From an uncultured Candidatus Saccharibacteria bacterium (GTDB lineage Bacteria > Patescibacteriota > Saccharimonadia > Saccharimonadales > Saccharimonadaceae): a stretch of 32,313 nt of DNA. The notes under the pieces are model-generated. The model was given only the letters and a program-made list of their open reading frames with translations. It did not search any database and was not told the origin of the DNA. The position numbers and the translations under genes are program-made. The stretch spans positions 1,436-33,748 of the forward strand of contig CAZQMP010000002.1 in the NCBI GenBank assembly GCA_964594565.1, read 5' to 3'. Of this stretch, positions 14,562 to 31,478 are shown one piece after another; position 1 is the stretch's first letter, and each line of letters starts with the position of its first letter.

Positions 14562-14960
14562 TTAAATCCTTAAGCTTTCGAAGTCAATCTTTTTGTATGT
14601 AAATTTTTTTACGTCAGAGATTTTTTCGGTTGTGAGGGATTTTACGTAAATATAATAGTCGGTTTCTTCGTCAAGTTCGAAGTCGTCGTAATTTTCCCAT
14701 TCACAGTTTTCTGCGCCTTCGACTTTCTGGACGCAGTAAACAAATTGCTCGTTTAGGATTTGTTCGATGGCGGATTCAGGGAATCCGGTTTGTGCGCGAA
14801 CAATCAAAGTCGATCCGTCCGTCTCTAGGCTAAACACTGTTGGATTTTTTGCAAAGTTCTTTCGAGAATGAAGAACGAGACTAATCGCGGTGAAAATAAT
14901 CAGAATCGCGACAAAAGCAGAAACGAGAATAACGATAAGATTTTTTTGGCGTTTATTCAC
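14562..14960 (-). CDS. Small membrane-anchored hypothetical protein (beta-sandwich-like ectodomain)
   Basis: GTG start at 14960 overlaps the 3' end of the upstream gene; basic N-terminus plus TM helix; YC...C.W...YYIYVK pattern. Confidence 0.7.
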   Translation of the reverse strand: MNKRQKNLIVILVSAFVAILIIFTAISLVLHSRKNFAKNPTVFSLETDGSTLIVRAQTGFPESAIEQILNEQFVYCVQKVEGAENCEWENYDDFELDEETDYYIYVKSLTTEKISDVKKFTYKKIDFESLRI

Positions 14961-17900
14961 AATCACTCTCCATATTATAATCGTTTTCAGCATAGCAGAG
15001 ATACTTCCTGAAGGCGGAATTTAAAGAATCGGTCGTATAGCCAAGAGTTGTGCTGTAGTAGGCGCCGTAGCGATCACGATAGTACGCAATGAAGGCTTCG
15101 GCCAGGAATTCAAATCCTTCGTCGTCACTAAAAGCGTATTCGCTGAGCGGGCGGTCGGCGTCCGCGGTCGAATCGTCTTGAGCATTGCGGATGGCGAGGA
15201 GTTCCGAGCGGGCAGTCGTAAATTCGGAATAATCGTGGAGGAAAGTTCCAGTACGCTCATAGAAAGCGCCGTCAAGAGCGTGCCCGAGTTCGTGAATGAT
15301 GGCATGTTTAATGTAGCCGTCTGCGGCGTCGTCGTATGGCGAGAGAATGTCGACAGGGGCGAAAACACCAAAGTATGGGTAAGTTACGCCCGCAGAGCCA
15401 TCGTGACTCGGATAGGCGTTATACGTCGTATAGTTCGAGAAGCGCATCTTTCCGTAAAGAGTTTTGAGTGCAGGGACGTTATTGAAGGCGCGTTCGATAT
15501 ATTCAGTATAATCAGTTCGAACGGAGCTTTCGATTGTGTCTTGGAATTCGACAGGATAGTATGCGTTTTCATTCGAGTCGTCGACGGAAACCTTTTTTGT
15601 TTCACCAAGGACAAAGTTACTGAGCGAGTACCAGTCCCAGATGCGAGCATAGAGCGTTCCGCTACCGGTAATGTTTAAGCTGTAGACGAGATAGACGTCT
15701 CCGCCAGGGTTAATTCCATAGCCAAGCACCATATGTCCGGGCGAATAGACGCGAGGGACACTAGCGAGTTTGCAGGTGTTGAGGTTGTAACTCACACAGT
15801 TTGTTGATCCTTCGAAGCTTAAGGCGGTCGCGGCGAGGTTGTTGTTCAACCAGTTGCCGTAGGCGATTTCTGTCGTTCCGCTTTGGAAAGTTGTGTTTTT
15901 ACTGAAGTAGACGACGATATTGTTCTGGGAGATAGAATAATAAGTCGTATCTTCGCCGAGTTGGAAAGGAATGCCAGCGCCGAGCGTGACAGGGCCGTTC
16001 TCGCTTAGGCCCCAGCCAGCGGCATAGTTATTACTGTCGGAGGAAGTAAGGGTCGGAGAGACGAGTTGGCAAGTCGAGGCGCCGTTATAGAGGAAGCATT
16101 GGGTTGTTCCGCCGGATTGGCTCATGAACGAAGACGTGCTAGAAGGAATGGTGAAAGTTGCACGGACGGGAGCCGTTCGCCGAGTAATCGAGTAGTAAGT
16201 TTCTTCGCGAGAGAAGTTAAACGAAGCGCCAGGAGTCAAAGAAGCGGTTGTTGCGGTCGGGTCAGTATTCCAGCCGAGCGCCGTATAGCCGGACGCGGCA
16301 GTTAGCTCAGGCACGGTTCCTGGGCAGTAGGTTGCGCCGTTATAGAGGTTGCATTGAACGTCGACGGAAGTCGAAGTGACGGCGTTGTGATCTTGGACTT
16401 GGAAGAGGATGTGGATTACGACTCGAGAAACACTGTAGTATTCGGTATTCTCGTAAACGGTCGCGGATTCTCCGCCATAGAATTCAGGTTCGTCGGCGTT
16501 CATAATCCAGCTCCAGCCGAGGAAGTCGGAAGAGTCGATGGTCGGAAAGACGAATGTACATTCTTTTGTGCCGCGGTAGAGGACGCAAGTATGAGTTGTT
16601 GTTTCAGTCCCGTTATGGAAGGTTACGACAATGGTTTTCTTGGTGATAGCGTAGAAAATTTCACCGCCAGAAATCGACGTTGTTCCGCCGGAAGCGACAG
16701 TCGCTTCTTCTGCTTCGCTTGACAAAGCCCATCCGAGCGGAGCGTGACCGTTGGAACCTCGGAGAGTCGGGGCAACAATTTCGCAACTTGAAGCGCCGTT
16801 GTAGCGCAAACAAGAAGTCGTTCCTCCATCCATGGAAGAAATGGTCGAATCTTGAAGGCGGAAAGTTGCGGAAATTGGCGAAGAGTCACGCGTAATTGAG
16901 TAGAAAGTTGTATCGGAACTTATTTCCGCGCTCGTTCCGAACGGGACGGAAGCAGAAGTCGACGAGGAGATAGTGTTCCAGCCGAGAGCCTCGTAACCAG
17001 AATTTGCGGTCAGGCTCGGCGCAACGATTTCGCAACTTGAAGCGCCGTTGTAAAGTTCGCAGGTCAAGGTTGACTCGCCCGACAACGTCGCGGCAGAAGA
17101 ATCTTGAATGACAAAGGTCGCAGAAAGCGGAGTCGTTTTCTTCGTTACGGAATAGTAGGTTATGTTTTCTGTCAGGAGAATCGTCGTCGCGGAGAGCTCG
17201 GCGGTTGTTGAGGCGGCAGTCCGACTCCAGCCGAGAAGCGCGTAGCCAGAGTTTAGCTCGACGGTCGGGACGTTCACGGAACAGCTTTGCTCGCCAGCTT
17301 CCGGAAGACACGAAACGGTTGAACGGCTCAGAGTCCCGGCGGCAGGATCTTGAAGGATGAAAGTCGCAGAGAGATAAAGGTCAGAGCGAACGACGGCATA
17401 AAAAGTCTTTCCGTCTTCATCGGCACCGAGGTAGAAAGTTTCGCCAGATTCGAGAGAAATCTGCTCTTCGTCGTTAGGGTTATGCCATCCAAGGGCGGTA
17501 TAGTTTTCGTTTGCGACAAGGTTCGGCGCCACGAGTTGACATTCAGTCGCAGCGTTATAAAGCAGACATTCAGTCGTCCCGCCGTTCATGGTTGCGGAAT
17601 CCGGGTCAGGGATCGTGAAGACGGCATGAATCGGAGTATCGCGACGAGTGATGGAATAGAAAATTGTGTCTCCGACAAGGTTATAAGTTGTGTTTTGAGC
17701 GATACTTGCGGTTGTCGAAGATGGAGTTAGGTTCCAGCCGAGAGCAGTATATCCCGAAGCGACAAGAAGCGGGGCGGTCATGATTGGGCAGGAATATTCT
17801 TCATTGTAAATCGAGCAAGAGGAAGAAGTCGTGGTCGTCGAAGCGTGAATAGAATCCTGGACTGCGAAGCTCGCGGTAAGAGTGCGCTTGGCGATGGCGT

Positions 17901-19098
17901 AGAGAGTGATGTTTCCAGAGAGGGTGATTTGCTCATTCGGAGCGAACTCGGCCGTGTGCGAATCAGCATGGGTTGACCAGCCAATGATTTCGTAGCCAGA
18001 GCGGTAGATAGAAGGGGTGCGGATAACACAGGTCGAGGTGGTCGTGCAGGAGCGGGAAGTCTCGCTCGAGGCGCCGTTACCGACGAACAGAGCAACGTAA
18101 GTATATGTCGACGGAGTCGGGTCAGGGTTTGTCGGATTCGTCGGCGATGGTGGGCGAACAATAACGGTGATATCTTCATCTCCGCCGCGTTGAATGTTGT
18201 CGGTCGGCTGACGGGTCGAGGAAGAGCCCGAGGAGCTTGAGGAGCTCGAAGAGCTTGAAGAGCTTGTGTCGGGGAGAGTGCCAACTTCCTCGTCGGTCGT
18301 AAACCGGACAACGACAGATTTGCGGGCAACGTTCCCCGCTACGTCTGTAACAGAGACAGCGTAGGTCCCGGAAGTCGTGACGGTTATGGTCGGGGTGGTC
18401 GCGCCATTATTCCAGGAATAGCTATCGATTCCCGAAGCGGTGTCGGCGGCAATCGCGGTCAGAACAGCTTCCGACTCGCCGGTTATTTCTCGAGAAATCT
18501 CCAAAGTTGGGGCGACTGTGTCGACTTTTGTGACTTTGACGGACTGAACATCAGAAAGAAAGCCAAAATAATCTCGAGCTTGGACTTTATAGGTTCCGTT
18601 TTTGGTAATTCGAGCGGAGTTCGAGGTCTGCCAGGTTTCCCCACCGTCAAAGGTATATTCAAGTTCTTTTACTGTCCCGGAGTTTTCTACGGTCACAGTC
18701 AGCGTCGCGTCGTTTGTCCAGGCGGTCGGATTCCCACGGATTGAGCGAATCGCAAGGGTAGTTGAATTCGGAGCAACCTTCGTAATCGAGAAGGTGTAAG
18801 TCTTGTTGTTGATTACGATCGTATGGCTTGAACTTGAGTTTGAAACGGGGACGGGCGTGTCGCAGCCAGTGACACTCGAGCCGGTACAGACAAAGTTTAA
18901 TGAAGTCTCACTTGTGTAGATTGTATAGTTAGAAGTTTCTTCAGAGAAACTTGGATAGCTCGTTCCGTTCGAGATAGAGATAGAAGCGGGGGTTGTTTCG
19001 CGGGTAAGGAAAAAATAGAGAGCAACGCCAACCCCAATTAACAACAAAAGGATGACGATAATTATAACAAGCTTTTTGTTATCTTTTTTATTCTCCAC
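14953..19098 (-). CDS. Large surface protein: N-terminal anchor, Ig-like domains, ~10 Cys-containing repeats and a C-terminal HExxH zinc-metallopeptidase-like domain
   Basis: N-terminal TM; Ig-like segments (YTFDGG.TW, DTVAPTL...D..SGI); Ser/Pro linker; ~80-aa repeats; HELGHALD (15280-15294) with downstream YA.....EFLAEAF. GTG start with GAGGT SD. Confidence 0.9.
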   Translation of the reverse strand: MENKKDNKKLVIIIVILLLLIGVGVALYFFLTRETTPASISISNGTSYPSFSEETSNYTIYTSETSLNFVCTGSSVTGCDTPVPVSNSSSSHTIVINNKTYTFSITKVAPNSTTLAIRSIRGNPTAWTNDATLTVTVENSGTVKELEYTFDGGETWQTSNSARITKNGTYKVQARDYFGFLSDVQSVKVTKVDTVAPTLEISREITGESEAVLTAIAADTASGIDSYSWNNGATTPTITVTTSGTYAVSVTDVAGNVARKSVVVRFTTDEEVGTLPDTSSSSSSSSSSSSGSSSTRQPTDNIQRGGDEDITVIVRPPSPTNPTNPDPTPSTYTYVALFVGNGASSETSRSCTTTSTCVIRTPSIYRSGYEIIGWSTHADSHTAEFAPNEQITLSGNITLYAIAKRTLTASFAVQDSIHASTTTTSSSCSIYNEEYSCPIMTAPLLVASGYTALGWNLTPSSTTASIAQNTTYNLVGDTIFYSITRRDTPIHAVFTIPDPDSATMNGGTTECLLYNAATECQLVAPNLVANENYTALGWHNPNDEEQISLESGETFYLGADEDGKTFYAVVRSDLYLSATFILQDPAAGTLSRSTVSCLPEAGEQSCSVNVPTVELNSGYALLGWSRTAASTTAELSATTILLTENITYYSVTKKTTPLSATFVIQDSSAATLSGESTLTCELYNGASSCEIVAPSLTANSGYEALGWNTISSSTSASVPFGTSAEISSDTTFYSITRDSSPISATFRLQDSTISSMDGGTTSCLRYNGASSCEIVAPTLRGSNGHAPLGWALSSEAEEATVASGGTTSISGGEIFYAITKKTIVVTFHNGTETTTHTCVLYRGTKECTFVFPTIDSSDFLGWSWIMNADEPEFYGGESATVYENTEYYSVSRVVIHILFQVQDHNAVTSTSVDVQCNLYNGATYCPGTVPELTAASGYTALGWNTDPTATTASLTPGASFNFSREETYYSITRRTAPVRATFTIPSSTSSFMSQSGGTTQCFLYNGASTCQLVSPTLTSSDSNNYAAGWGLSENGPVTLGAGIPFQLGEDTTYYSISQNNIVVYFSKNTTFQSGTTEIAYGNWLNNNLAATALSFEGSTNCVSYNLNTCKLASVPRVYSPGHMVLGYGINPGGDVYLVYSLNITGSGTLYARIWDWYSLSNFVLGETKKVSVDDSNENAYYPVEFQDTIESSVRTDYTEYIERAFNNVPALKTLYGKMRFSNYTTYNAYPSHDGSAGVTYPYFGVFAPVDILSPYDDAADGYIKHAIIHELGHALDGAFYERTGTFLHDYSEFTTARSELLAIRNAQDDSTADADRPLSEYAFSDDEGFEFLAEAFIAYYRDRYGAYYSTTLGYTTDSLNSAFRKYLCYAENDYNMESDCE
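15631..18107 (-). repeat. About 10 tandem ~72-95 aa protein repeats
   Basis: Consensus A.F..QD...T.C..YNG..C...AP.L....GY.ALGW......T.Y(S/A)IT(R/K). An identical 26-nt segment occurs at 16778-16803 and 17027-17052. Confidence 0.9.
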
Positions 19099-19375: not shown

Positions 19376-20683
<1,308 letters not shown>

Positions 20684-20716: not shown

Positions 20717-21793
20717 CTAAAGCGCTTCGTGGATGAAGGAGTAGGTCTGCCATTCGGAAGCGGCAATCGTGCGAGTTGCGACGCGTCCCCAACCTTGCGG
20801 ACCGTTCATGTCGGAGATGGTAATGGTCCCGTCGGCATTTACGCCGTCAGAGATAACGACGCCAACGTGGCCGTAGTATCCGCCTTCAGCGACGAAGACT
20901 GCACCCCATTCAGGGTTACGGTCAATACGATAGCGACCATAAAGCTGGTTGTCCCAATAGCGGGCGTTACCGAGGCCAGACGGGAGCGGCGAGAAGTTCT
21001 CGTAGCGCCATTGCCAGGCGTACCAAGTACACCAGCCCCAAGGCATCGGGTTGTAGTTTACATAGTTCAGGTTCGAGCGGTAATAGTAAGTTGTCTGGAC
21101 AGGGGCAGGAGCGACGTATTCTGGGCGTTCAGTTTCAGGGAGAGTCCCGCCAGGAATGACGATTTTCATGCCGGCAGAAATGCCGCGAGCGGAGAGGTTG
21201 TTCTTTTCTTCGATTTCTTCGGCGGTCGAGCCATATTTTTCGGCAATCGACGCCGCAGAGTCGCCTTCCTTAACGGTGTAGACGATCCCAGGAACAGAGG
21301 GGAGATAGAGAGTCTGGCCAGCAGAAACGTCGGTCGTTTTGAGGCCGTTCGACCAGCGGATTTGGTCGGTCGAGAGACCCTTTGAGCTTGCGATTGCTTC
21401 CATCGTCTCAGAGGTGCCGACTTCATATTCAATCACACCCTTCGCGAGAGAGGAAGTGTCGACGATATTCGTCTTCTCAATACGGGTCGAGGCGGTTTGG
21501 TTGATTGAGTACTGGGTTACGGCGGAAATATAGTCCATGTTTAGGTAGTTTGAAGAGCTAAGCGAGACATTGTTCGCGATTTCGGCGACGATATAGAGTT
21601 CAGAAAGCTGGTCGACAGAGACGGAATAGTTGTTGTCGGAGATGGCGAGCATGATAGGGACACCGTTCTCTTCGACAGTCTTGTTTTTGGAACCAAAATA
21701 AACTGTTCCGAGGATGAGAGCGCCGGACAAAACATAGCAAAGACCCCTTAAGAAAGGATTCTTGGACTCAGATTTGGATTTTTTAGCTGTCAT
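20717..21793 (-). CDS. LysM-LysM-CHAP peptidoglycan hydrolase with N-terminal anchor
   Basis: Two LysM repeats (YEV...ETM..IA...IRWSNGL; YTVKEGDS..SIA.KYG); CHAP Cys (WCTWYA), GNA..W, His (YGHVGVV), SDMN. ATGA overlap with the upstream gene. Confidence 0.9.
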   Translation of the reverse strand: MTAKKSKSESKNPFLRGLCYVLSGALILGTVYFGSKNKTVEENGVPIMLAISDNNYSVSVDQLSELYIVAEIANNVSLSSSNYLNMDYISAVTQYSINQTASTRIEKTNIVDTSSLAKGVIEYEVGTSETMEAIASSKGLSTDQIRWSNGLKTTDVSAGQTLYLPSVPGIVYTVKEGDSAASIAEKYGSTAEEIEEKNNLSARGISAGMKIVIPGGTLPETERPEYVAPAPVQTTYYYRSNLNYVNYNPMPWGWCTWYAWQWRYENFSPLPSGLGNARYWDNQLYGRYRIDRNPEWGAVFVAEGGYYGHVGVVISDGVNADGTITISDMNGPQGWGRVATRTIAASEWQTYSFIHEAL

Positions 21794-23502
21794 AATGAAA
21801 CGTTACAGAGTTCTGTGCAATGACTGACGATGTTCTGTTGATGCTCAGCCTTTGTAGTACTATAATACATCAAACCATCGTCTCCTGTCAAGAAATAAAG
21901 ATAAGAGGTGTCAGCGGGGTTTGCGGTTGCGATCAGGACAAGGGCGGACGGATTTGAGATTGGTCCACAGGGGAGACCGACATTAATCCGTGTGTTATAA
22001 CAAGAGTCGATTTGGAGCGCAGCGGCGTTGTCGGTGTAGGTTTTACGCTCAGGATCGACCAAATCGAGGGCGTATTTTACGGTTACATCAGATCCAAGCG
22101 ACATACCCATCTGGAGACGAGAATAGAAAACTTGGGCGACGGTCGCCATATCTTCTTTCGAGAGTGTTCCAGCTTCTTTCTGGACAACAGAGGCGAGAAC
22201 AATTCCCTCATGGAGAGTGAGACCCATGTTGTTAAACTTTTGTTTCAGATTGTTTTTCTGGACAACGGTATAGAGTTCGTCGAGCATACGAATCACAATC
22301 GTTTCGACAGAGTCGGTCGTGTAAAATTCGTACGTTTCCCCGAAGAGATAGCCCTCGATAGAGGCGTCAGCGGGTTTGTCGGCCAGAACGGGATGGTCGT
22401 AGGCTTTAGAGAAGGCAGCGTCAATTTCCTCTTCTTCGTAGCCGATGCTCATCAAACGTTTTTTAATGTCCTTCATCGTTTCTCCAGGGAGAGCAGTGAA
22501 CCGGAAGACGATGGCGTCGTTTGAACCGGCTTGGAGCTTTTCGATGATTTTTTCGACGGATTCAGAGGCGGAGATTTGGTAGGTTCCGGCTTTCAAATCG
22601 GCAGAAACCTTGTTTAGCGTCGCATAAATTCGGAAACCAAGAGAGCTTTTTATCAAACCCGCATCTTTCAAAGTATTCGCAATGTCAGTTACGGTCGAGC
22701 CTTCGGCGATTTTTACTTCAACGTACTTACAGGGGTCGGAATCATCAGAGGAAAAGATGCTTGCACAGCTATCCGAGGCGATTTTTGGAGAAATCGAGGA
22801 GTTATACCAGAAATTTGCGCCTAGAACGCCCAGAACAGCCACCAGAACGACGATAATCAAAACCCGAATCACAACCCACTTTTTTGTCGGATCCTTCCTA
22901 TAGGGCTTAAATTGCGTTTTAGGGGCATTTTCGCCTTCTCTCGAGAAGTCAGGGCGACTAGAAACAGGAGCGCCATTAGGGGCTTTTAGGGGATTTTGGA
23001 CGTATTTTGAGGCGTTTTTAGGGACTTTTACGGCAGCAGGGGCAGGTTCTTCGGAGGCGGTTTTCTTCTCTTTTAACCTTCGCTCAAGGTTTTCGAGAAA
23101 ATCTTGGAGGATAATCGTCGCGGCTTCAGTGTCGACATCTCCAGCTTTTTTGTCAAAACCTTTGTTTTTTAGGTTCTGTTTTGCCTCAACAGAGGTCAAA
23201 GATTCGTCTTGGAACAGGATTCTGACGCTCTTGTTATTAGGTTTTTCGCGTTGGAGGAGCTTGTTTAGAGATTTCGCGAAGCGTTTAACGTAGTCAGATT
23301 GGGCAGTTAACTCGCCTTGGAGATTTCGGGGCATCCCGATAACGACTGCGTCGATGTTGTTTAGACGGACGACTTTGACGATGTTTGCGACTTCTTGACC
23401 ATCAACCGCAATCATCCCGAGCGGGACGGCGATTTTTACACTTGAGTCGGCCTTTGCGAGGCCGATTCGCTTTTCTCCGACATCTAAGGCGATAAACTTC
23501 AT
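21790..23502 (-). CDS. ruvX-mltG: Fusion of YqgF/RuvX RNase H-fold nuclease (aa ~1-138), linker, TM helix and endolytic transglycosylase MltG
   Basis: YqgF motifs IALDVGEKRIGLA, VIGMP, QDESLTS, VD..AA.IILQ.FL; MltG motifs EGYLFGETY, LASVVQKE, LGSDVTV.Y, YNT....GLP.GPISNP, YLYF; one uninterrupted frame. Confidence 0.92.
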   Translation of the reverse strand: MKFIALDVGEKRIGLAKADSSVKIAVPLGMIAVDGQEVANIVKVVRLNNIDAVVIGMPRNLQGELTAQSDYVKRFAKSLNKLLQREKPNNKSVRILFQDESLTSVEAKQNLKNKGFDKKAGDVDTEAATIILQDFLENLERRLKEKKTASEEPAPAAVKVPKNASKYVQNPLKAPNGAPVSSRPDFSREGENAPKTQFKPYRKDPTKKWVVIRVLIIVVLVAVLGVLGANFWYNSSISPKIASDSCASIFSSDDSDPCKYVEVKIAEGSTVTDIANTLKDAGLIKSSLGFRIYATLNKVSADLKAGTYQISASESVEKIIEKLQAGSNDAIVFRFTALPGETMKDIKKRLMSIGYEEEEIDAAFSKAYDHPVLADKPADASIEGYLFGETYEFYTTDSVETIVIRMLDELYTVVQKNNLKQKFNNMGLTLHEGIVLASVVQKEAGTLSKEDMATVAQVFYSRLQMGMSLGSDVTVKYALDLVDPERKTYTDNAAALQIDSCYNTRINVGLPCGPISNPSALVLIATANPADTSYLYFLTGDDGLMYYSTTKAEHQQNIVSHCTELCNVSL

Positions 23503-25277
23503 TATTCCTCGATTTCTACGTTAATTTCGACTTGGTTTGGATTCGACGGGACGGCATTGACCCAGAAATAAGACTTCTCGATCGAAACGGAAGCAATTCC
23601 AGGGAAGGCGTCCTTAAGGACAGGTTCGATACGACCGATTTTTTGACCGGAAATTTTGTCGAGGATTTCGGTTTCGGAAATCTTCGGACCGGTTTTATAG
23701 GTCGTTTTTAGCTTTGCACTATAGGTCTTGTTGTCGGATTCGGTGAAGTATTCGACGAACGGAGAACCGATTGAGTACATTTGGCGATTTTCTTCGAGTT
23801 CGGTGCGGAATTTGATGAATTCTTCGATGCGAACCATGTCAACGGTAAGAATCGTGTAAGTTGTCTTCGAGGAGACGGAAGGAGTGACCCCTTCAGGGAC
23901 TTCTTCACCAACCGCCGGCGTCGAGGACGGAGCGGTCGCTTCGGATTTGAAGCTGGCTTCAATCGGAAGGACGGAATCGGAAAGCTTTCCGAGCAACTCG
24001 GTTTTCCCGCCATCTTTTGTTTCGGAGGCGAGTTTGTCGAGCGCAAGGTCGATGTCAGACTGAAGGACGATAGTGACGATTTGCGACGTGCCGCCAACGA
24101 GGTCTGATTTGTTATAGACAGAGACTGATGGGAATTCTTTTGAACTCCACCCAGATTGTTGACCGGAAACGTTGTATTGTTCACCAGGAGAAACGGCTTT
24201 AACGGAAACAGTTTCGGAAATTATACAGCCGCGAGATATCGAGCTTCCATCTCCACAATTCGTTTCATCTTCGCCATCCCACGCCAAAGTTGCGTCAGAA
24301 ACGGCAATATATTCGAGGCCCTTGTAGATGAAAGTTGAACCTGCAGCAAAATCAAAGGAAAATCTGTCTCGATCTTGGAAATAGACAACGAGCGTGCCCG
24401 AAGCTTTTTCTCCAAGGTCTTTCTGGCCGGTGGCGGTGAATTTGATGGTTTGGTCTTTTTCGAGCTTTTCTTCGTGGGCGTAGAAGATTCCCGATTCGGT
24501 GTTTTCGTCAGCGGGAGCTGTCGTGAAAGTTACGTTTTCGGAGAAATTACCAGAGCTGGTGCGGACGGAGACGGAAACCTTAACACGCGGAGCAATCATA
24601 AGTGCCCAGACAAAGAAGACAACAAGGGCGGTTACGGCGAGAGTACCGAAAATAATCCATTTTTTATGACCATTAATCCAGGCGATGAACGGAGAGCCGG
24701 ATTCTTTTTTCGACTTCTTCTTTTCTTCTTTCTTGGACTTTTTCTCGGGTTTTTTGGACTTTTCGGGTTTATCGGATTCTTCAGTCTTTTCGTCAGCTTC
24801 AATTTCGTCGACAAGTTTCGAGGCTTCTGGCTCCTCGGTGAATTCTTCGGCGGATTCGGAAGTTTCTTCCTCGTTTTCTTCCGCTTCTTCGGTCTCGGCT
24901 TTTTCTTCCTCGGCGTCTTCAGAATCTTCTTCAGGTTCGCTCGGTTCTTCTGGCTCTTCTTCGCCAGGATCTTTCTCGGGTTTTTCAAGCTCGGATTCGT
25001 GGCCGGGCATGACTGGGCGAGATTTCAAAGAAGGAGCAACTGGAAGATTTGCGTGCATGGCAAGTTTCGTCAAAGAATCGTCGGTCGTGACGAGAACAAC
25101 GGCTTTTTTCTCGGACTTTGCGGTGCGCGCGATGAGTTTTATGTTTACGGAACTAAGTAAGACGCCCGGTTTTTTCGGAGGGACGAGCGCAATCACTTTT
25201 TTCTCGGAAGATTTTAGCCGCGCGAGAATGTCAGTGATGTCGTCACCGGGTTCAATGTAAATAGTTTCTTTATTCAT
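23502..25277 (-). CDS. Bitopic membrane protein with a baseplate-J-like extracellular region
   Basis: Start moved to ATG 25277 (MNKETIYIEPGDDIT), 8 nt after TGgTATACT. Small N-terminal alpha/beta domain, acidic/Lys-rich linker, TM, then KASGTLVVY...V.V.A..PGEQYNV...GG. TAATG coupling to the ruvX-mltG gene. The family call is from recognition only. Confidence 0.75.
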   Translation of the reverse strand: MNKETIYIEPGDDITDILARLKSSEKKVIALVPPKKPGVLLSSVNIKLIARTAKSEKKAVVLVTTDDSLTKLAMHANLPVAPSLKSRPVMPGHESELEKPEKDPGEEEPEEPSEPEEDSEDAEEEKAETEEAEENEEETSESAEEFTEEPEASKLVDEIEADEKTEESDKPEKSKKPEKKSKKEEKKKSKKESGSPFIAWINGHKKWIIFGTLAVTALVVFFVWALMIAPRVKVSVSVRTSSGNFSENVTFTTAPADENTESGIFYAHEEKLEKDQTIKFTATGQKDLGEKASGTLVVYFQDRDRFSFDFAAGSTFIYKGLEYIAVSDATLAWDGEDETNCGDGSSISRGCIISETVSVKAVSPGEQYNVSGQQSGWSSKEFPSVSVYNKSDLVGGTSQIVTIVLQSDIDLALDKLASETKDGGKTELLGKLSDSVLPIEASFKSEATAPSSTPAVGEEVPEGVTPSVSSKTTYTILTVDMVRIEEFIKFRTELEENRQMYSIGSPFVEYFTESDNKTYSAKLKTTYKTGPKISETEILDKISGQKIGRIEPVLKDAFPGIASVSIEKSYFWVNAVPSNPNQVEINVEIEE

Positions 25278-25326: not shown

Positions 25327-26877
25327 ATGAGTCTGCTTAATTTTAAAAAACCTAAGCCGAACGAAGCCGGAAATGGTTCAGAAAATGGCGCGACGCCACC
25401 GCCGCCGGTTGATGCTGCTGTCCTTGCGGAACTTGCTTTGAAAACAATCCATGACGGCGTTATTATCGTCAACAAAGCCGGGGTGATTCGCTTTTTGAAT
25501 CCGGCCGCGATTGATATGCTTGGGATTGAAAAAGCCGACAATGCGGTCAATCTCGACATCGCGCTTGTGATGAAGTTCGAAATGACGGACGGAACGCGGA
25601 TTGATTCTTCAAACAACGATTTGGTAAAATACATAAAAGCCAACACTCCTTTTGAAACAAAGGATTATGTGCTTGTTTCTGCGTTGTCCGACAAAAAGAC
25701 ACCAGTCGCACTGACGATGACGCCAACAGGAAATTCCGGAAGCGATAAAATCATAACGTTCAGAAACATCGCGAAGGAACTTGAGGAAGAGGGCGCACAA
25801 GCAGAATTTATTTCTACTGCTTCGCACGAAATGCGTACGCCAGTTGCTTCGATTGAAGGCTATCTCGGTCTTGCCTTGAACCCTCAAACTGCGACGATTG
25901 ATGCGCGTGCTCGCCAATATCTCGAATCGGCTCATTCCGCCTCACAGCGGCTTGGAAACTTGTTTAAGGATTTGCTCGACGTAACAAAACTCGAAGATAA
26001 CCGCGTAAAAGTACGCCCGGTTCCGATTGAGTTGGTTGGATTTGTAAAAAAGTTTGCGGACGAATATATCCCGAAATTCAAAGAAAAAAATATTACTTAT
26101 AGTTTCGGGGCGGAAAAAGCAAAAACAAGTCGTTTCGGCGGGGGTGGTGGCGCTCAAAAAACCATCGGCCAAGTCGTATATACGTTTGCGGACGTGGATT
26201 TTTTGGGTGAAATTCTCGCAAACTTAATCGAAAACGCAATAAAATACACCCCGATTGGTGGGGCGGTTTGGGTCAATGTTCAAGGCGACGGCGACCGTGC
26301 GCTTATCAACGTAACCGACACCGGAATCGGAATCGCGGCGGAAGACCTCCAGCATATTTTCCAGAAATTCTATCGCGCCGATAACTCCCAGACACGTACA
26401 GTCGGCGGAACCGGACTTGGACTTTATATCGTTAAACAACGTACGGAAGCGATGGACGGACGCGTTTGGGCGGAAAGTGCCTTTGGAGAAGGTTCGACTT
26501 TTTATGTTTCCCTGCCACGTCTTTCTCAAGAAGAATACGAGAAGCGTCAAATTGCCGTGAAAAACCAAGCCGCAGTCCAAATGTTCGCCGAGACTCCGCT
26601 TTCGATGAACGCAAAGACCGGCTCGATGGCGACCAGCTTAGCTCCTGCTCCGGGTCAGCCAATGATTCAACAAACCCAGGCTTTTGCCCCGCAAATGACG
26701 GCGATGCCGACTGTCGGCACAGCGCCAACTTTGCAGCCTTTACAACAGCCAGCTCAGCCAATACAACAACCAATGCCGCAGCCAATCCAACCCGCGCCGC
26801 AAATCCCTCAAGCTCCAGTCCAGCCTGCTCCGCCGGGAGCTCCCTCTATTCAAAACGCACAAAATATAATACAATAA
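25327..26877 (+). CDS. Soluble PAS-domain sensor histidine kinase with a Pro/Gln-rich tail
   Basis: PAS (DGVIIVN..G.I...NPAA), H-box ASHEMRTP, N-box NLIENAIKYT, DTGIGI, F-box, GTGLGL; no TM helix. Confidence 0.95.
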   Translation: MSLLNFKKPKPNEAGNGSENGATPPPPVDAAVLAELALKTIHDGVIIVNKAGVIRFLNPAAIDMLGIEKADNAVNLDIALVMKFEMTDGTRIDSSNNDLVKYIKANTPFETKDYVLVSALSDKKTPVALTMTPTGNSGSDKIITFRNIAKELEEEGAQAEFISTASHEMRTPVASIEGYLGLALNPQTATIDARARQYLESAHSASQRLGNLFKDLLDVTKLEDNRVKVRPVPIELVGFVKKFADEYIPKFKEKNITYSFGAEKAKTSRFGGGGGAQKTIGQVVYTFADVDFLGEILANLIENAIKYTPIGGAVWVNVQGDGDRALINVTDTGIGIAAEDLQHIFQKFYRADNSQTRTVGGTGLGLYIVKQRTEAMDGRVWAESAFGEGSTFYVSLPRLSQEEYEKRQIAVKNQAAVQMFAETPLSMNAKTGSMATSLAPAPGQPMIQQTQAFAPQMTAMPTVGTAPTLQPLQQPAQPIQQPMPQPIQPAPQIPQAPVQPAPPGAPSIQNAQNIIQ

Positions 26878-26899
26878 GATAAATGGAGGAGACAGAATT

Positions 26900-27607
26900 A
26901 TGACAAAAATTATGGTAGTCGAGGACGATCAGAGCCTCCGCGAGATTTATTCAATTAGATTAACTGCTGAAGGATACGAAGTTGTTTCGGCCGGAGACGG
27001 CGAGGAAGCTTTGGCGATTGCTGTGAAAGAAAAACCGGATTTGATTCTTTCGGATGTAATGATGCCAAAAATTTCCGGGTTTGATATGTTGGACATTTTG
27101 CGTTCAACCCCCGAAACAAAGTCGATAAAAGTGATTATGATGACAGCGCTCTCGTCGGATGACCAGAGAAAACGCGGAGAAGGTCTTGGCGCGGATAAGT
27201 ACCTCGTTAAGAGCCAGGTCGGGATCGAAGACGTGATTACCGCAATTAAGGAAGTCCTTGGAGGAGCTCCTTCGCCTACGCTTCAGCAGCAAGCCATGGC
27301 GGACGCCCCCGCAGAAGTTGCTCAAGCCGCCGGAATTGCCCCGACAGCGGCTCCTGCTGCACCTGCACAAGCCCCCGTTGCTGCGCCTGCGGTCGCGCCT
27401 ACAGCCCCAGTACAGCCCGCTCCGGCCCCCGTTGCTGCGCCTGCTCCGGTTGCACCTGAAGCTCCAGTACAAGCTCCTGCCGCCCCCGCTCAACCAGTTC
27501 AACCTGTTCAACCCGTCGCCCAACCTGCTCCAGTAGCCCCTGCCCCACAAGGAGAAGTCAATGCAGCCCCAGTCGCCCCAAGCGCCCCAGCCGCTCCGGC
27601 TCAATAA
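26900..27607 (+). CDS. Response regulator: receiver domain plus Pro/Ala-rich tail, no DNA-binding domain
   Basis: VVEDD, LILSDVMMP (phospho-Asp), MMTA, YLVK; GGAGG SD. Confidence 0.93.
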   Translation: MTKIMVVEDDQSLREIYSIRLTAEGYEVVSAGDGEEALAIAVKEKPDLILSDVMMPKISGFDMLDILRSTPETKSIKVIMMTALSSDDQRKRGEGLGADKYLVKSQVGIEDVITAIKEVLGGAPSPTLQQQAMADAPAEVAQAAGIAPTAAPAAPAQAPVAAPAVAPTAPVQPAPAPVAAPAPVAPEAPVQAPAAPAQPVQPVQPVAQPAPVAPAPQGEVNAAPVAPSAPAAPAQ

Positions 27608-28265
27608 ATATCTTGCTGAAAGACTCGGTATTTCTCGTCGCGAAGCAGACGATTTGATTGCGAGCGGGAAGGTTTTTGTTAACGAAAAGCGTGCAGAACT
27701 CGGCATGCGAGTTTTTGAAGGTCAGGAAGTTAGGCTCGGAGACGAAATTGTTCCGTTCGAGAACTCTTATATTTATCTCGCGTTCAATAAACCGGTGGGG
27801 TATGTTTGTTCGCGGAAACGTCAAGGTGAAACGCCGACTATTTATGAGCTACTTCCGGAAGAATATCGAACGCTAAAAACCGTCGGTCGGCTTGATAAAG
27901 ACTCTTCGGGCTTGATTTTATTCACAAACGACGGAGATTTTGCGTTTAGAATGACGCATCCGAAGTTCCACAAGATAAAAGTTTATCATGTCGAACTCGA
28001 TCGAGACCTCGAGCCGCTTCATCAACAAATGATTGCGGATTTTGGGGTCCAACTTCCAGACGGCGTTTCTAAACTTGGGCTGGCGAGGCTTCGAGACAGC
28101 GACCGAAAAGGCTTTGAAGTGACGATGAGCGAAGGACGGAATCGCCAAATCCGCCGGACATTTGCGGCGCTTGGCTATGAAGTCAAAAAACTCCACCGAA
28201 TCCAATTCGGGAATTACGAACTTTCCGGACTTAAGACCGGAGAATACGAAAAGTTTAGAATTTAG
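27561..28265 (+). CDS. rRNA pseudouridine synthase, RsuA/RluB/RluF family
   Basis: S4 domain RLNKYLA...SRREAD, NKP.G, GRLDKDSSGL (catalytic Asp), EGRNRQIRR; AAGGAG SD before ATG 27561. Confidence 0.95.
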   Translation: MQPQSPQAPQPLRLNKYLAERLGISRREADDLIASGKVFVNEKRAELGMRVFEGQEVRLGDEIVPFENSYIYLAFNKPVGYVCSRKRQGETPTIYELLPEEYRTLKTVGRLDKDSSGLILFTNDGDFAFRMTHPKFHKIKVYHVELDRDLEPLHQQMIADFGVQLPDGVSKLGLARLRDSDRKGFEVTMSEGRNRQIRRTFAALGYEVKKLHRIQFGNYELSGLKTGEYEKFRI

Positions 28266-29573
28266 TTAGTGGCTAAGGAGTTTTGTCAGCTTTGCTTTTA
28301 GGCCCTTCGCTTCGGGAGCAGCAAGAAGGGTGTCGACGGCGACGCGCAAAAGACCGAGAGCAGTGATGAATGAGCTGTCGAGGAGGAGAGATTCGTCTTC
28401 ATCTTCAGGTAAAATGAAATCGGGGAGTGAGAACGGGTCGAGAAGGTGGACGAGTGGACGTTTTTCAAAAGAAAGATGTTTAAACCAGTCGCCAGTTGCA
28501 AGCGCCTCTTCGAGAGGCAAAAGATTTGAGCTTCCTCCGGACAAGAAAATATCTTCCGGTAAAGGCGAGACATTTTTAAATTCTTCAAGCGCGAGAGAAA
28601 CTCCGGCGAGCCAAACCGACAAACTGCGCGAAAGAGCGCCGGTCGTTTTGTTAATAATGGCGTCAGAAAGGGCTTCGTCATCTTCGAGATTGACTTTGTA
28701 TTTTTCTGCAGTAGCGAGTTTTACGCCGAGCGATTCGGAAACTTGGCGTGTGAAAGCCTGACCGGCGATGTTAAACATTTTTGTTCCGCAAATTCCACCA
28801 GCATCAATCACGGCGATGTCGGTCGTCCCGCCGCCAATATCAATCAACACAGCCGAAAAATCAACATCGACTTCGTCGCCGAGACAAGCGCGACAAACCG
28901 CGAACGGTTCGACAACAACCGCGAGCAAATCAAGTTCGAGTTCGACACAAACTTTTTCAATCGCAGAAACGGCAATCGCCGGGGCAAACGCGGTATAATA
29001 TTCGATTAAAACTTCGCCACCTTTAAAACCGACGGGGTTGTTGATTTTATAGCCATCAATCGAAAGTGAGACGAGCGCGGAGTTAATTAACGAAAGCTCG
29101 ACTTCAGGATTGTCAGTTTCGAGGGAAAGTTCGGTTTTGACTTTTTCTTCGGCGCGCGATTCGATTTTTTCGAGTAGCTCACGAAGTTCAGATTCGGTTA
29201 TCGACTTGTTCGGAGAATCGCGACGATAGCGAATCGTCGTCGTCGAGCCTTTGACGAGTTCCCCAGAAATTCCGACGACAACGGCTTTTGCACGTTCGCC
29301 GGTTTTCTTTTCGAGTTCGGAAAGGGCGTCTTCACAAGACGTAACAACGCCAGGAATATCCGCGATTGCACCGCCGGACATATTTCCGGGGGCTTGGCGG
29401 GATTTTGAAAATCCGAGCAGTTTCAGTTTTCCGGACTTTAAAGTGTCTTTGAAACGAATGACTTTTTCGGGCTTGTCCGGGTCGACGGGCGTCGCAAGGG
29501 CACACTTAACAAACTCCGAACCAATATCGAGAGCGAGCAAAGTATGTCTTGGCTCAGTTTGTTTAGAGCTCAT
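28266..29573 (-). CDS. FtsA-like actin-fold ATPase (no adjacent ftsZ)
   Basis: LALDIGSEFVK (phosphate 1), VVEPFA, LIDIGGGTTD (phosphate 2), AE..K, LSGGSSNL (adenosine), basic amphipathic C-terminus. Start moved to ATG 29573, 6 nt after TATACT. Confidence 0.85.
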   Translation of the reverse strand: MSSKQTEPRHTLLALDIGSEFVKCALATPVDPDKPEKVIRFKDTLKSGKLKLLGFSKSRQAPGNMSGGAIADIPGVVTSCEDALSELEKKTGERAKAVVVGISGELVKGSTTTIRYRRDSPNKSITESELRELLEKIESRAEEKVKTELSLETDNPEVELSLINSALVSLSIDGYKINNPVGFKGGEVLIEYYTAFAPAIAVSAIEKVCVELELDLLAVVVEPFAVCRACLGDEVDVDFSAVLIDIGGGTTDIAVIDAGGICGTKMFNIAGQAFTRQVSESLGVKLATAEKYKVNLEDDEALSDAIINKTTGALSRSLSVWLAGVSLALEEFKNVSPLPEDIFLSGGSSNLLPLEEALATGDWFKHLSFEKRPLVHLLDPFSLPDFILPEDEDESLLLDSSFITALGLLRVAVDTLLAAPEAKGLKAKLTKLLSH

Positions 29574-29600
29574 GAATAAAGTATAAGCCAAATTTGAAAA

Positions 29601-31478
29601 TTATTCAAGGACGGCTTTTATGCGGCGAACGCCGGCCGAGGAAGATTCTTCTTTTTTGATTTTGAATTTGCCGAGGACGCCGGTGTGTTCGACGTGTGGA
29701 CCGCCACAAACTTCGCGAGAAACCGGGTTTTCAAAATCGCCGATTGTGTAGACTTTTAATTTTTCAGGATACTTTTCCCAGAATTGGCCGTGCGCCTTCA
29801 AAACATTTCGGGCGTAGTCTTTATCGTATTCCGCAAAAACAACCGGAAGATCGGCGGCGATCCAGCTATTGACTTGGTCTTCGACGGTTTTAATTTCTTC
29901 GGGCGTCATTTTATGGTCGAGATTAAAATCGAAACGAACACGTTCAGAAGTAATGTTAGAGCCTTTCTGGCAGGCGTCTTTTGAAATGTGTTTTTGGAGC
30001 GCAGCGAGAAGAAGGTGAGTTGCGGTATGGTATTTTACGGTTTGTTCGCCGTGGTCTTCGAGACCGCCTTTAAACATACCTTTCGAGGCAGTCTTTGAGC
30101 GTTCGCGTTGCTCGTTAAGCGCAGCGTCGAATTCGGCTTTGTAATTTTCCGAAAGTTCAATTCCCTGGCGGAAAGCTTCTTCGACGGAAATTTCAAACGG
30201 GAAGCCGTAAGTATCCTGGAGCTTAAACAAGTCTGCTCCGTCGAGGCTCTTTGCGCGGGCCATTTTTGTCATTTCTTTAAGACCGCGGTTTAAAGTCGAG
30301 CGGAAGGCTTTTTCTTCCTTTTCAAGAATTTCGAGAGCATGCTCACGATTCGTCAAAATCGAGTCCGGAAGAGATTTATATTCGTCGGAAATCGTCGAGA
30401 TGGTTTCGCGGAGAAAATCTTGCGCGATACCGAGATCGAGAGCCTTTAAAATCGCGCGGCGAATAAGGCGGCGGAGGGCATAACCTTGGGCCTTGTTGCT
30501 TGGGGCGAGGCCCTGCGCAGCGAGGAGGTAAGCTCCGCGCAAATGGTCGCAGATGATGCGCATTTCGTCGGTACTGTTTTCGTAAGTTTTTCCGGAAAGA
30601 GTTTCGAGCTTTTCGATAATCGGGCGCATGAGCGAGATTCTAAAGACGTCAAAGCTACCCATCGACGCCGCCGCGAGGCGTTCAAGCCCGCCGCCAAAGT
30701 CGACGTTTTTGTGTTCAAGTTCAGAAAAACTACCGTCTTCGTTTCGGCGATATTGCATGAAAACTTGGTTCCCGATTTCCATGAAGCGAGCGCCGTCGGA
30801 AGCGGGATGGCTTTTGCCATATTTTTCGACGTCTTGTTTGTCTTCGCCGAAATCGTAAAAAACTTCACTATCTGGTCCGCAAGGATCGCCGATTGGCGTG
30901 GTTTCGATTCCGCCGCCGCGACTCCACCAGTTTTCTTTGTCGTTGTAGAAGAAAATTCGTTCGTCATCTTTAATTCCGCGTTTGTCACCATTTTCAGCGG
31001 TATCCATGTCGACGATTTTCGCTTCGATCCCAGCTTCTTTAAAGACAGATTGCCAGATTTTCGCAGCTTCGAGGTCCTTCGGAATGCCATATTTTTCTGA
31101 GCCGATGAAACAAGTGACGAAAATCTTCTCGGGGTCGAGGCCGATTTCTTTCGTCAAAAATTCAAAATAATTTCGGATTTGTTCTTCTTTAAAATAATCG
31201 CCGAGTGACCAGTTTCCGAGCATCTCGAAAACAGTCGTATGGCGCGGGTCGCCAACATCTTCGATATCTTGGAGACGAAGGCAAGGTTGAGAATCGGTCA
31301 AACGAGTTCCGTCAGGATGTTTCTCGCCAAGAAGATAGCGCAAAAGCGGCTGCATGCCTGAGCCGGTAAACAGAGTGGTCGGGTCATTCTCGAGGACGAG
31401 AGGAGCCGGGGCGATAACTTTGTGACCTTTTTTAACTTGAAAATCTAAATATTTTTGACGGATTTCGCTTGCATTCAT
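29601..31478 (-). CDS. alaS: Alanine--tRNA ligase, short form lacking the C-Ala domain
   Basis: DPT.LFT.SGM, RHTTVFEMLGNWS.GDYFKE, GPDSE, DFGGGLERL, DH.R, FKLQDTYGFP, editing HTATH and CGGPH; ends at GVRRIKA. Confidence 0.97.
   Translation of the reverse strand: MNASEIRQKYLDFQVKKGHKVIAPAPLVLENDPTTLFTGSGMQPLLRYLLGEKHPDGTRLTDSQPCLRLQDIEDVGDPRHTTVFEMLGNWSLGDYFKEEQIRNYFEFLTKEIGLDPEKIFVTCFIGSEKYGIPKDLEAAKIWQSVFKEAGIEAKIVDMDTAENGDKRGIKDDERIFFYNDKENWWSRGGGIETTPIGDPCGPDSEVFYDFGEDKQDVEKYGKSHPASDGARFMEIGNQVFMQYRRNEDGSFSELEHKNVDFGGGLERLAAASMGSFDVFRISLMRPIIEKLETLSGKTYENSTDEMRIICDHLRGAYLLAAQGLAPSNKAQGYALRRLIRRAILKALDLGIAQDFLRETISTISDEYKSLPDSILTNREHALEILEKEEKAFRSTLNRGLKEMTKMARAKSLDGADLFKLQDTYGFPFEISVEEAFRQGIELSENYKAEFDAALNEQRERSKTASKGMFKGGLEDHGEQTVKYHTATHLLLAALQKHISKDACQKGSNITSERVRFDFNLDHKMTPEEIKTVEDQVNSWIAADLPVVFAEYDKDYARNVLKAHGQFWEKYPEKLKVYTIGDFENPVSREVCGGPHVEHTGVLGKFKIKKEESSSAGVRRIKAVLE

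What the first reader, a model, noticed from the sequence alone, without database searches (positions are those of the whole stretch)
21790..23502. YqgF/RuvX nuclease fused across the membrane to the peptidoglycan terminase MltG
Seen: a single 570-aa frame contains a complete YqgF domain with its acidic motifs (LDVG, DE, VD), a ~70-aa Pro/Lys linker with no ATG, one TM helix (aa ~209-232) and a complete MltG domain with the catalytic-motif Glu (SVVQKE). Established: YqgF is a cytoplasmic RNase H-fold protein implicated in pre-16S rRNA 5' processing; MltG is an extracytoplasmic lytic transglycosylase that terminates glycan strands; the two are normally separate, often neighbouring, genes near alaS. 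Inference: the fusion tethers a ribosome-maturation nuclease to sites of wall synthesis at 1:1 stoichiometry, a possible physical link between ribosome biogenesis and envelope growth in a minimal cell. The ribosome GTPase gene obg lies two genes downstream.
Basis: partly seen in the sequence, partly recalled or inferred. Interest (0 to 1): 0.8.

Follow-up and report, generated by a model that had tools for sequence, protein, structure and literature searches.

The report
YqgF nuclease fused to MltG
In this ultra-small Saccharibacteria genus, the gene for a nuclease (YqgF/RuvX) and the next gene, for a cell-wall-cutting membrane enzyme (MltG), form one reading frame, which likely arose when two already overlapping neighbour genes merged, so the nuclease is predicted to hang on the inner face of the membrane while both halves likely keep their separate jobs.

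Summary
One 570-aa frame carries YqgF (aa 1-137), a disordered linker, one membrane helix and MltG (aa 263-558), with all catalytic residues intact. It is no assembly error: none of 139 genus genomes with YqgF has a free copy, and contigs from three studies bridge the linker. The fusion arose twice in Saccharimonadales (this genus; part of family f44; one origin rejected, p-AU 2e-11). Elsewhere the genes are separate but already abut (41 of 46 loci), so near-1:1 coupling likely predates the fusion. The linker matches the long cytoplasmic tail of unfused MltG in sister genera. Evidence against a ribosome-wall link: the linker is unconserved (16-84 aa); obg is a neighbour in unfused genomes too; one f44 genome re-split, kept YqgF and lost mltG; published Tn-seq in an unfused Saccharibacterium calls ruvX essential and mltG not. 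Best reading: a tolerated, hard-to-reverse fusion of coupled neighbours, with membrane tethering as a by-product. A selected tether is not excluded. No paper found; the architecture is visible in databases, and the scan noted it before on other DNA (e1-5206459).

The parts
21790..23502 (-). yqgF-mltG fusion gene, 570 aa
23092..23502 (-). YqgF/RuvX RNase H-fold domain (aa 1-137); acidic triad D7 (23484-23482), E100 (23205-23203), D124 (23133-23131)
   Evidence: Pfam; invariant in 100 of 100 aligned fusions; aligned to E. coli YqgF 1nu0; fold matches 7ess, 1vhx, 7w89, 1nu0
22879..23091 (-). Linker (aa 138-208): helix extension to about aa 150, then disordered and Pro/Lys-rich, basic just before the membrane helix; likely the former cytoplasmic tail of MltG; no in-frame start codon
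   Evidence: tails of unfused sister MltGs
22810..22878 (-). Single transmembrane helix (about aa 209-231), predicted N-in/C-out
   Evidence: hydropathy peak 3.09, only segment over 1.6; net charge higher before than after the helix in 40 of 41 fused and 46 of 46 split proteins; all six Cys lie after the helix (sequence)
22522..22725 (-). MltG membrane-proximal LysM-like subdomain (about aa 260-327; name taken from 10.1101/2021.03.06.434200); present here, absent in 16 of 37 genus members
   Evidence: alignment to 4iiw
21793..22515 (-). MltG catalytic subdomain (aa 330-570): catalytic E443 (22176-22174) and D472 (22089-22087), the Asp of lytic-transglycosylase-type members
23502..25277 (-). 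Upstream gene, Baseplate_J-like bitopic membrane protein (about 591 aa); its stop overlaps the fusion's start (TAATG)
   Evidence: Pfam PF04865 on only 14-32% of cluster members; in 37 of 37 fused and 45 of 46 split loci
20717..21793 (-). Downstream LysM-CHAP wall hydrolase; its start overlaps the fusion's stop (ATGA)
21862..21891 (-). Sigma-70-like promoter match (TTGACA-18-TATTAT, 11 of 12) inside the 3' end of the fusion gene, facing LysM-CHAP; consensus match only
19376..20680 (-). obg GTPase; conserved neighbour in fused and unfused genomes; promoter-like site at 20715-20687 just upstream

Best explanation
The gene encodes one protein, YqgF nuclease, then a flexible linker, one membrane helix and MltG, that likely arose by loss of the stop between two overlapping neighbour genes and is predicted to sit with the nuclease inside the cell and the wall enzyme outside, each likely doing its usual job independently. 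Shown: one frame, both domains whole, catalytic residues invariant, two separate origins, abutting genes in unfused relatives. Inferred steps: (1) a small indel or stop loss at the yqgF/mltG overlap put YqgF in frame with MltG's existing long cytoplasmic tail, which served as a ready-made spacer; (2) the helix acts as an internal signal-anchor (N-in, C-out); (3) outside, E443/D472 cut nascent glycan strands as a lytic transglycosylase; (4) inside, the tethered YqgF trims RNA, most likely pre-16S rRNA, since a separate RuvC is present for Holliday junctions; (5) tethering costs little in a very small cell; (6) once the internal start decayed, re-splitting would need a new stop and a new start together, or loss of mltG, so the fusion stays fixed without having to be beneficial.
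For: Unfused relatives: start within -20..+10 nt of the stop in 41 of 46 loci, 21 of them -4 or -1 overlaps; G042 and G049 are in frame with only a stop plus 3 nt between. Long MltG tails in unfused sisters of both fused groups: 41-84 aa in 6 of 7 f1 genomes, 37-75 aa in 3 of 3 f44 genomes, against 3-32 aa in 32 of 33 loci from 25 other families (one without a called start) (post hoc Fisher p 0.008 on 28 families). Linker 16-84 aa, unconserved, disordered in the model, pTM 0.56. No excess of convergent residues between the two fused groups: 3 sites against 0, 1 and 2 in three control pairings. Purifying selection on both halves (155 close fused pairs: pS 0.82/0.75, pN 0.18/0.20). G426 re-split with mltG decayed and four flanking genes intact. 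ruvX ES, mltG NE in S. epibionticum. RuvC, FtsW-type, class A PBP and MurG genes in 5 of 5 genomes tested. YqgF also fuses to another downstream neighbour family (P0121, RuvX plus PF06949, one cluster).
Against: The same fusion was fixed twice, and 0 of 139 genus genomes went back, which a benefit would also explain. Many unfused lineages have the same one-step route to fusion, yet only 7 of 245 order genomes with YqgF are fused, so ease of mutation alone is not enough; the long-tail explanation is post hoc, rests on three families, and S. epibionticum appears to have a long tail without fusion (YceG begins at aa 154 of about 481). The gene order itself (yqgF beside mltG) is ancient, two loci apart in B. 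subtilis (PMC3814617 table passage), which may reflect a real functional tie. No activity, localisation or proteomic data exist here. ATG is mildly enriched in the 15 codons before the helix (14 of 615 against 11 of 1207, p 0.03, kin not independent), so some members may still make free MltG.
Confidence: 0.65

Rival explanations
1. Selected tether: the fusion is favoured because holding the nuclease at the membrane helps (confines a promiscuous nuclease, raises its local concentration for dimer formation, or places it with other membrane-bound RNases); MltG is only a convenient anchor and no signal passes between the halves.
For: Two independent fixations; no reversion in 139 genus genomes; 11 of 41 fused linkers have no start codon at all, so tethering is obligate there unless the protein is cut; YqgF homologues are broad nucleases and some dimerise (PMC9601230); membrane-bound RNase E and RNase Y are recalled precedents.
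Against: 238 of 245 order genomes and 133 of 133 genomes of the phylum outside the order with YqgF do without it; G426 lost the tether and kept YqgF; no convergent changes.
Confidence: 0.17
2. Growth coupling: the fusion places ribosome maturation at sites of wall synthesis, so that ribosome production and envelope growth are physically linked.
For: The conserved block mixes ribosome factors (yqgF, obg) with wall enzymes (mltG, LysM-CHAP) across the order. Pneumococcal MltG binds the RNA-binding protein EloR (title only seen in a reference list; details recalled), and Jag_N was not found in 0 of 5 genomes searched here, so the tail is free for another RNA-handling partner.
Against: A floppy, unconserved linker and a single helix give no evident route for a signal; ruvX and mltG differ in essentiality; re-splitting with mltG loss; obg linkage is independent of fusion and obg has its own promoter-like site; 16 of 37 genus members lost the LysM-like subdomain while keeping the fusion.
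Confidence: 0.09
3. Polyprotein or dual start: one gene, but two working products, through cleavage in the disordered linker or an internal start before the helix, so YqgF is not tethered in practice.
For: Disordered basic linker; 20 of 41 fused linkers have an in-frame ATG, mildly enriched near the helix.
Against: 11 of 41, including this one, have no ATG/GTG/TTG in the linker; no conserved linker motif that could be a cleavage site; an internal start would add free MltG but not free YqgF.
Confidence: 0.08
4. Assembly or sequencing artefact that hides a stop or frameshift.
For: The window comes from a fragmented assembly (84 contigs); no raw reads were available.
Against: Fusion read directly, stop to stop, in 55 genus genomes; contigs of three studies span the linker without indel; the 120 best of 1033 long homologues all carry both Pfam domains.
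Confidence: 0.01

Closest known systems
YqgF/RuvX (PF03652, TIGR00250; E. coli YqgF 1nu0, B. subtilis 1vhx, M. tuberculosis 7ess, D. radiodurans 7w89)
   Same: Fold, length and the three-carboxylate site.
   Different: Characterised members are free, soluble proteins of about 140 aa; here the domain is the N-terminus of a membrane protein.
MltG/YceG (PF02618, TIGR00247; Listeria 4iiw, E. coli 2r1f)
   Same: Membrane helix, LysM-like subdomain, catalytic Glu and the conserved Asp.
   Different: Its cytoplasmic N-terminus carries a folded nuclease; part of the genus lacks the LysM-like subdomain.
Unfused ruvX-mltG pair of Southlakia epibionticum (SEML1_0654/0653, PMC10633639 Tables S1, S2)
   Same: Same order (baseplate-J-like, ruvX, mltG), 1-nt overlap between the genes.
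   Different: Two frames; ruvX called essential at two later passages, mltG non-essential.
Pneumococcal MpgA/MltG with EloR (KhpB/Jag)
   Same: An RNA-handling protein held at MltG's cytoplasmic side (title seen; mechanism recalled).
   Different: Non-covalent, an RNA-binding regulator and not a nuclease; MpgA has Asn and is a muramidase; Jag_N not found in the 5 genomes searched.
Membrane-anchored RNases (RNase Y, RNase E) (recalled)
   Same: A ribonuclease held at the inner membrane face.
   Different: They use their own anchor; none is known to me to be joined to an extracytoplasmic enzyme.

Membership tests
YqgF/RuvX | Whole-domain match over the curated cut-off | tested here: met
   PF03652 105.5 bits (cut-off 29.2), TIGR00250 74.2 (43.25); the narrower PRK00109 model was below its cut-off, 61.3 against 155
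YqgF/RuvX | Three carboxylates (Asp, Glu after strand 5, Asp), unlike RuvC | tested here: met
   D7, E100, D124 invariant in 100 of 100; feature described in PMC9601230
YqgF/RuvX | RNase H-like fold | tested here: met
   Model matches 7ess, 1vhx, 7w89, 1nu0 at E 4e-8 to 6e-7, ahead of RuvC
YqgF/RuvX | Nuclease activity on pre-16S rRNA or branched substrates | not testable with these tools
   Needs an assay; a separate RuvC is present
MltG/YceG | Whole-domain match over the curated cut-off | tested here: met
   PF02618 234.8 bits (32.4), TIGR00247 176.7 (103.4); the narrower PRK10270 model was below its cut-off
MltG/YceG | One membrane helix before an extracytoplasmic LysM-like plus catalytic module | tested here: met
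   Hydropathy, charge bias and model; topology is predicted, not measured
MltG/YceG | Catalytic Glu (E. coli Glu218) | tested here: met
   E443 aligns with the KE Glu of 2r1f and 4iiw; invariant
MltG lytic transglycosylase type (against MpgA muramidase type) | Asp at the E. coli Asp245 position | tested here: met
   D472 in 41 of 41 fused proteins; the paper says other residues also matter
MltG/YceG | Cleavage of nascent glycan giving anhydro ends | not testable with these tools
   Needs an assay; synthesis genes are present
Functionally coupled (Rosetta-stone) fusion | Recurrent fusion | tested here: met
   Two origins, p-AU 2e-11
Functionally coupled (Rosetta-stone) fusion | Conserved junction or interface, shared fate of the two genes | tested here: not met
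   Linker unconserved, no convergence, re-split with mltG loss, differing essentiality

The most novel reading that the evidence does not exclude
The ancient yqgF-mltG neighbourhood reflects a real partnership: MltG's cytoplasmic tail is a docking site that holds the ribosome-maturation nuclease where new wall is made, and two Saccharibacteria lineages made the link covalent, so that ribosome finishing and envelope growth happen at the same spot in a minimal cell.
Probability: 0.1. Interest if true: 0.78.

Novelty: new variant of a known kind. Interest (0 to 1): 0.38.

Why it matters
It shows that an essential nuclease of RNA metabolism can apparently work while tied to the membrane by as few as 16 residues, across a large animal-gut genus. 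It gives a clean genus marker that annotation hides: NCBI names these proteins MltG only, so YqgF would be scored as missing. The natural series (abutting genes, in-frame with one stop, two fusions, one re-split with mltG loss) and a genetically tractable unfused relative make it cheap to test whether such a fusion is neutral or selected. If coupling were shown, it would be a physical link between ribosome biogenesis and wall growth, a long-standing question in growth control; present evidence leans against that.

Tried and rejected
Long 'open frame' values for G042 and G049 first looked like third and fourth fusions; the DNA shows an in-frame stop plus 3 nt plus ATG, so they are split. That column can therefore run through a stop, and of the 139 long genus frames only those checked stop to stop count as proven (55 genus genomes in all). 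Search for fusions in other phyla: a Riflebacteria YqgF against longer proteins gave 3 hits among 1074 candidates, two that resemble the genus fusions and one with PF06949; weak evidence, and only 120 of 1033 hits were listed. ESM Atlas: 5 RuvX+YceG clusters among 30 hits; the three shown are commonest in Saccharimonadota. The search for related loci gave 9 loci, one of them Saccharibacteria. No RNA holder listed. No 16S or 23S motif found in the assembly, so the rRNA substrate could not be examined. Convergent-site test negative. The careful 87-row tree did not finish (quick tree); a 30-row careful tree was used for the test (57 of 87 rows left out for time). Paper searches with no result: yqgF+mltG, ruvX+mltG (11), Saccharibacteria+MltG (50); YqgF+membrane+fusion+yceG gave one unrelated paper (67). 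The EloR-MltG paper is not held. No complex prediction was sent, as no binding is claimed. The genus name is unknown; Nanosyncoccus was my recalled guess for one search and is untested.
Full report
OBSERVATION. The window is from a 665-kb, 84-contig assembly (95% complete). Close homologues are named Candidatus Saccharibacteria, and the runs that hold the stretch are mostly animal gut metagenomes. The minus strand has one 570-aa frame at 23502..21790. Pfam places RuvX at aa 1-137 and YceG at aa 263-558, both nearly whole and far over cut-off; NCBIfam agrees. There is one hydrophobic segment, about aa 209-231. AlphaFold2 on a 100-sequence alignment gives mean pLDDT 88.6 but pTM 0.56, with aa 159-203 disordered, which fits two folded halves without a fixed arrangement. 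Foldseek returns MltG structures and YqgF structures. D7, E100, D124, E443 and D472 are invariant in 100 of 100 aligned fusions. The linker has no in-frame start codon. Contigs from three studies span the linker with no indel.

DISTRIBUTION. In the genus (g1), 139 of 141 genomes have a YqgF match and all 139 lie in frames of 332-601 aa; the two under 430 aa run off a contig. Because that column can read through a stop (see Tried and rejected), I checked DNA stop to stop: 37 of 37 loci with both domains (G016 and G018 are cut by contig ends, and G016 reads through the helix) and 18 of 19 further loci (the other is cut by a contig end after the helix). All 7 genomes of the six sister genera are unfused. 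In an even draw of 251 order genomes, 245 have YqgF and 7 are fused: 3 of g1 and 4 of family f44. This count includes two unpublished genomes, G069 and G284, both unfused. In f44, 13 of 16 genomes have a match: 8 fused, 5 split. Of 138 phylum genomes outside the order, 133 have YqgF, none in a frame over 222 aa. Trees of the two domains need two changes, forced by starred branches (87 rows, quick; 30 rows, careful); one fused clade is rejected (p-AU 2e-11). With unfused outgroups all round, two origins is the simplest reading.

ORIGIN. In 46 unfused loci the nearest mltG start lies within -20..+10 nt of the yqgF stop in 41, and 21 are -4 or -1 overlaps (starts chosen by a nearest-codon rule). 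G042 and G049 are already in frame, with a stop and three bases between. In the window the fusion is itself chained by TAATG upstream and ATGA downstream. So coupled translation is likely the ancestral state, and one small change joins the genes. The linker needs no new sequence: unfused MltG has a 41-84-aa Pro/Lys/Gln-rich tail in 6 of 7 sister-genus genomes and 37-75 aa in 3 of 3 unfused f44 genomes, but 3-32 aa in 32 of 33 loci from 25 other families. A third family, f34, has long tails in 2 of 3 loci and no fusion. Fusions in 2 of 3 long-tail families against 0 of 25 gives p 0.008, but this is post hoc, most families rest on one genome, and S. epibionticum also seems to have a long tail unfused. 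I read the tail as permissive, not sufficient.

BOTH HALVES ARE KEPT. Among 155 close fused pairs, pS is near saturation (0.82 YqgF, 0.75 MltG) and pN is 0.18 and 0.20. The YqgF/MltG distance ratio is 0.84 in g1, 0.83 in unfused sisters, 0.79 in fused and 1.28 in unfused f44 (3 genomes), so YqgF is not decaying. The genome keeps FtsW-type, class A PBP and MurG genes, so MltG has a substrate, and keeps RuvC, so YqgF is not needed as the resolvase (5 of 5 genomes). D472 matches E. coli Asp245, the residue found in most YceG proteins and replaced by Asn in the muramidase MpgA (10.1101/2021.03.06.434200, passages; its supplementary figure was not seen).

ARE THE HALVES COUPLED? Against: the linker runs from 16 to 84 aa with no conserved motif. 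The two fused groups share 3 residues not found in their unfused sisters, against 0-2 in control pairings. G426 is sister to fused G235 (95/96), yet its YqgF ends at three stops with its catalytic motifs intact, its mltG is broken by many stops and frameshifts, and four flanking genes are whole; it is one genome, 89% complete, which keeps FtsW-type and one class A PBP gene. In S. epibionticum, where the genes overlap by one base, Tn-seq calls ruvX NE/ES/ES and mltG NE/NE/NE over three passages (PMC10633639, Table S1 rows and methods passages). obg follows LysM-CHAP in fused and unfused genomes alike (33 of 37, 4 of 4, 2 of 3, 6 of 7 and 16 of 36 loci, limited by locus length) and has a promoter-like site of its own (consensus only). 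For: two fixations, no reversion in the genus, and an old neighbourhood (B. subtilis yrrK and yrrL are two loci apart; PMC3814617, table passage). Lack of reversion is also expected without benefit, since 11 of 41 linkers have no start codon left and a clean split would need two changes while MltG is under selection. The pneumococcal EloR-MltG interaction is a precedent for an RNA protein at MltG, but I saw only its title (PMC8563077 reference list); passages of PMC9804626 add only that a KhpB-RodZ complex was not detected in vivo.

HOW IT LIKELY WORKS. The ribosome makes YqgF first, then the basic tail; the helix anchors the chain with its C-terminus outside (charge bias in 40 of 41 fused proteins; all six Cys lie after the helix). 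MltG cuts nascent glycan strands. YqgF acts on RNA near the membrane. For a sphere of 100-150 nm radius (size recalled for Saccharibacteria, not from a call), 42-58% of the volume lies within 25 nm of the membrane, so a tether would cost little. What YqgF cuts is uncertain: pre-16S rRNA in E. coli and Acinetobacter, branched DNA in Helicobacter and Mycobacterium, RNA in Deinococcus (PMC9601230, introduction and passages).

NOVELTY. No paper holding both gene names was found (open-access library only, subscription journals missing). The architecture is visible in databases: automatic Atlas clusters named for both domains, and NCBI entries named MltG only. The scan reached a like verdict on another genome (e1-5206459); my reading was set down before I saw it, and it is not independent support. 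Added here: the counts, the two-origin test, the long-tail precondition, the re-split genome, the essentiality contrast and the LysM-like loss. Verdict: real, a new variant of known parts, interest 0.38; the coupling story is about 1 in 10.

Noticed in passing
L018, L021-L023, L026-L030, L071-L076, L078: 16 of 37 genus fusions lack about 70 aa between the membrane helix and the catalytic subdomain, the LysM-like part that sets product length in MpgA/MltG; all 16 fall in one well-supported clade of 18. An E. coli MltG without it was reported non-functional, yet these keep invariant catalytic residues.
   Followed up: partly
L113 (G426:C1:181500-190500): Natural re-split inside the fused f44 group: intact free YqgF, decayed mltG, intact neighbours.
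   Followed up: yes
window 23502-25277 and 28266-29591 (-): Baseplate_J-like membrane protein and an FtsA/PilM-like protein, adjacent in G426 but separated here by a plus-strand kinase, response regulator and pseudouridine synthase (25327-28265). The Baseplate_J-like gene is called essential in S. epibionticum, possibly through polarity on ruvX.
   Followed up: partly
G011, G034, G004, G268, G012, G027: In six genus genomes the Obg N-terminal domain match is in two pieces within one frame, about 15-45 codons apart, suggesting an insertion in the Obg fold.
   Followed up: no
L063, L069 and other unfused loci: 4 of 46 unfused MltGs have Asn at the Asp245 position, the muramidase-type residue; which loci was not listed.
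   Followed up: no
P0121: A 260-aa protein joining RuvX to PF06949, another apparent fusion of YqgF to a downstream neighbour; one cluster, one contig.
   Followed up: no
window 14953-19098 (-): 1381-aa membrane-anchored surface protein with Listeria-Bacteroides repeats and an HELGH zinc-peptidase-like motif near the C-terminus (motif reading recalled).
   Followed up: no
window 3971-5809 (-) and 1292-3955 (-): A 612-aa protein with a cutinase-family domain next to an 887-aa protein with no Pfam match.
   Followed up: no
window 29601-31478 (-): AlaRS is 625 aa and ends after the tRNA_SAD domain, so it lacks the usual C-terminal extension (recalled).
   Followed up: no
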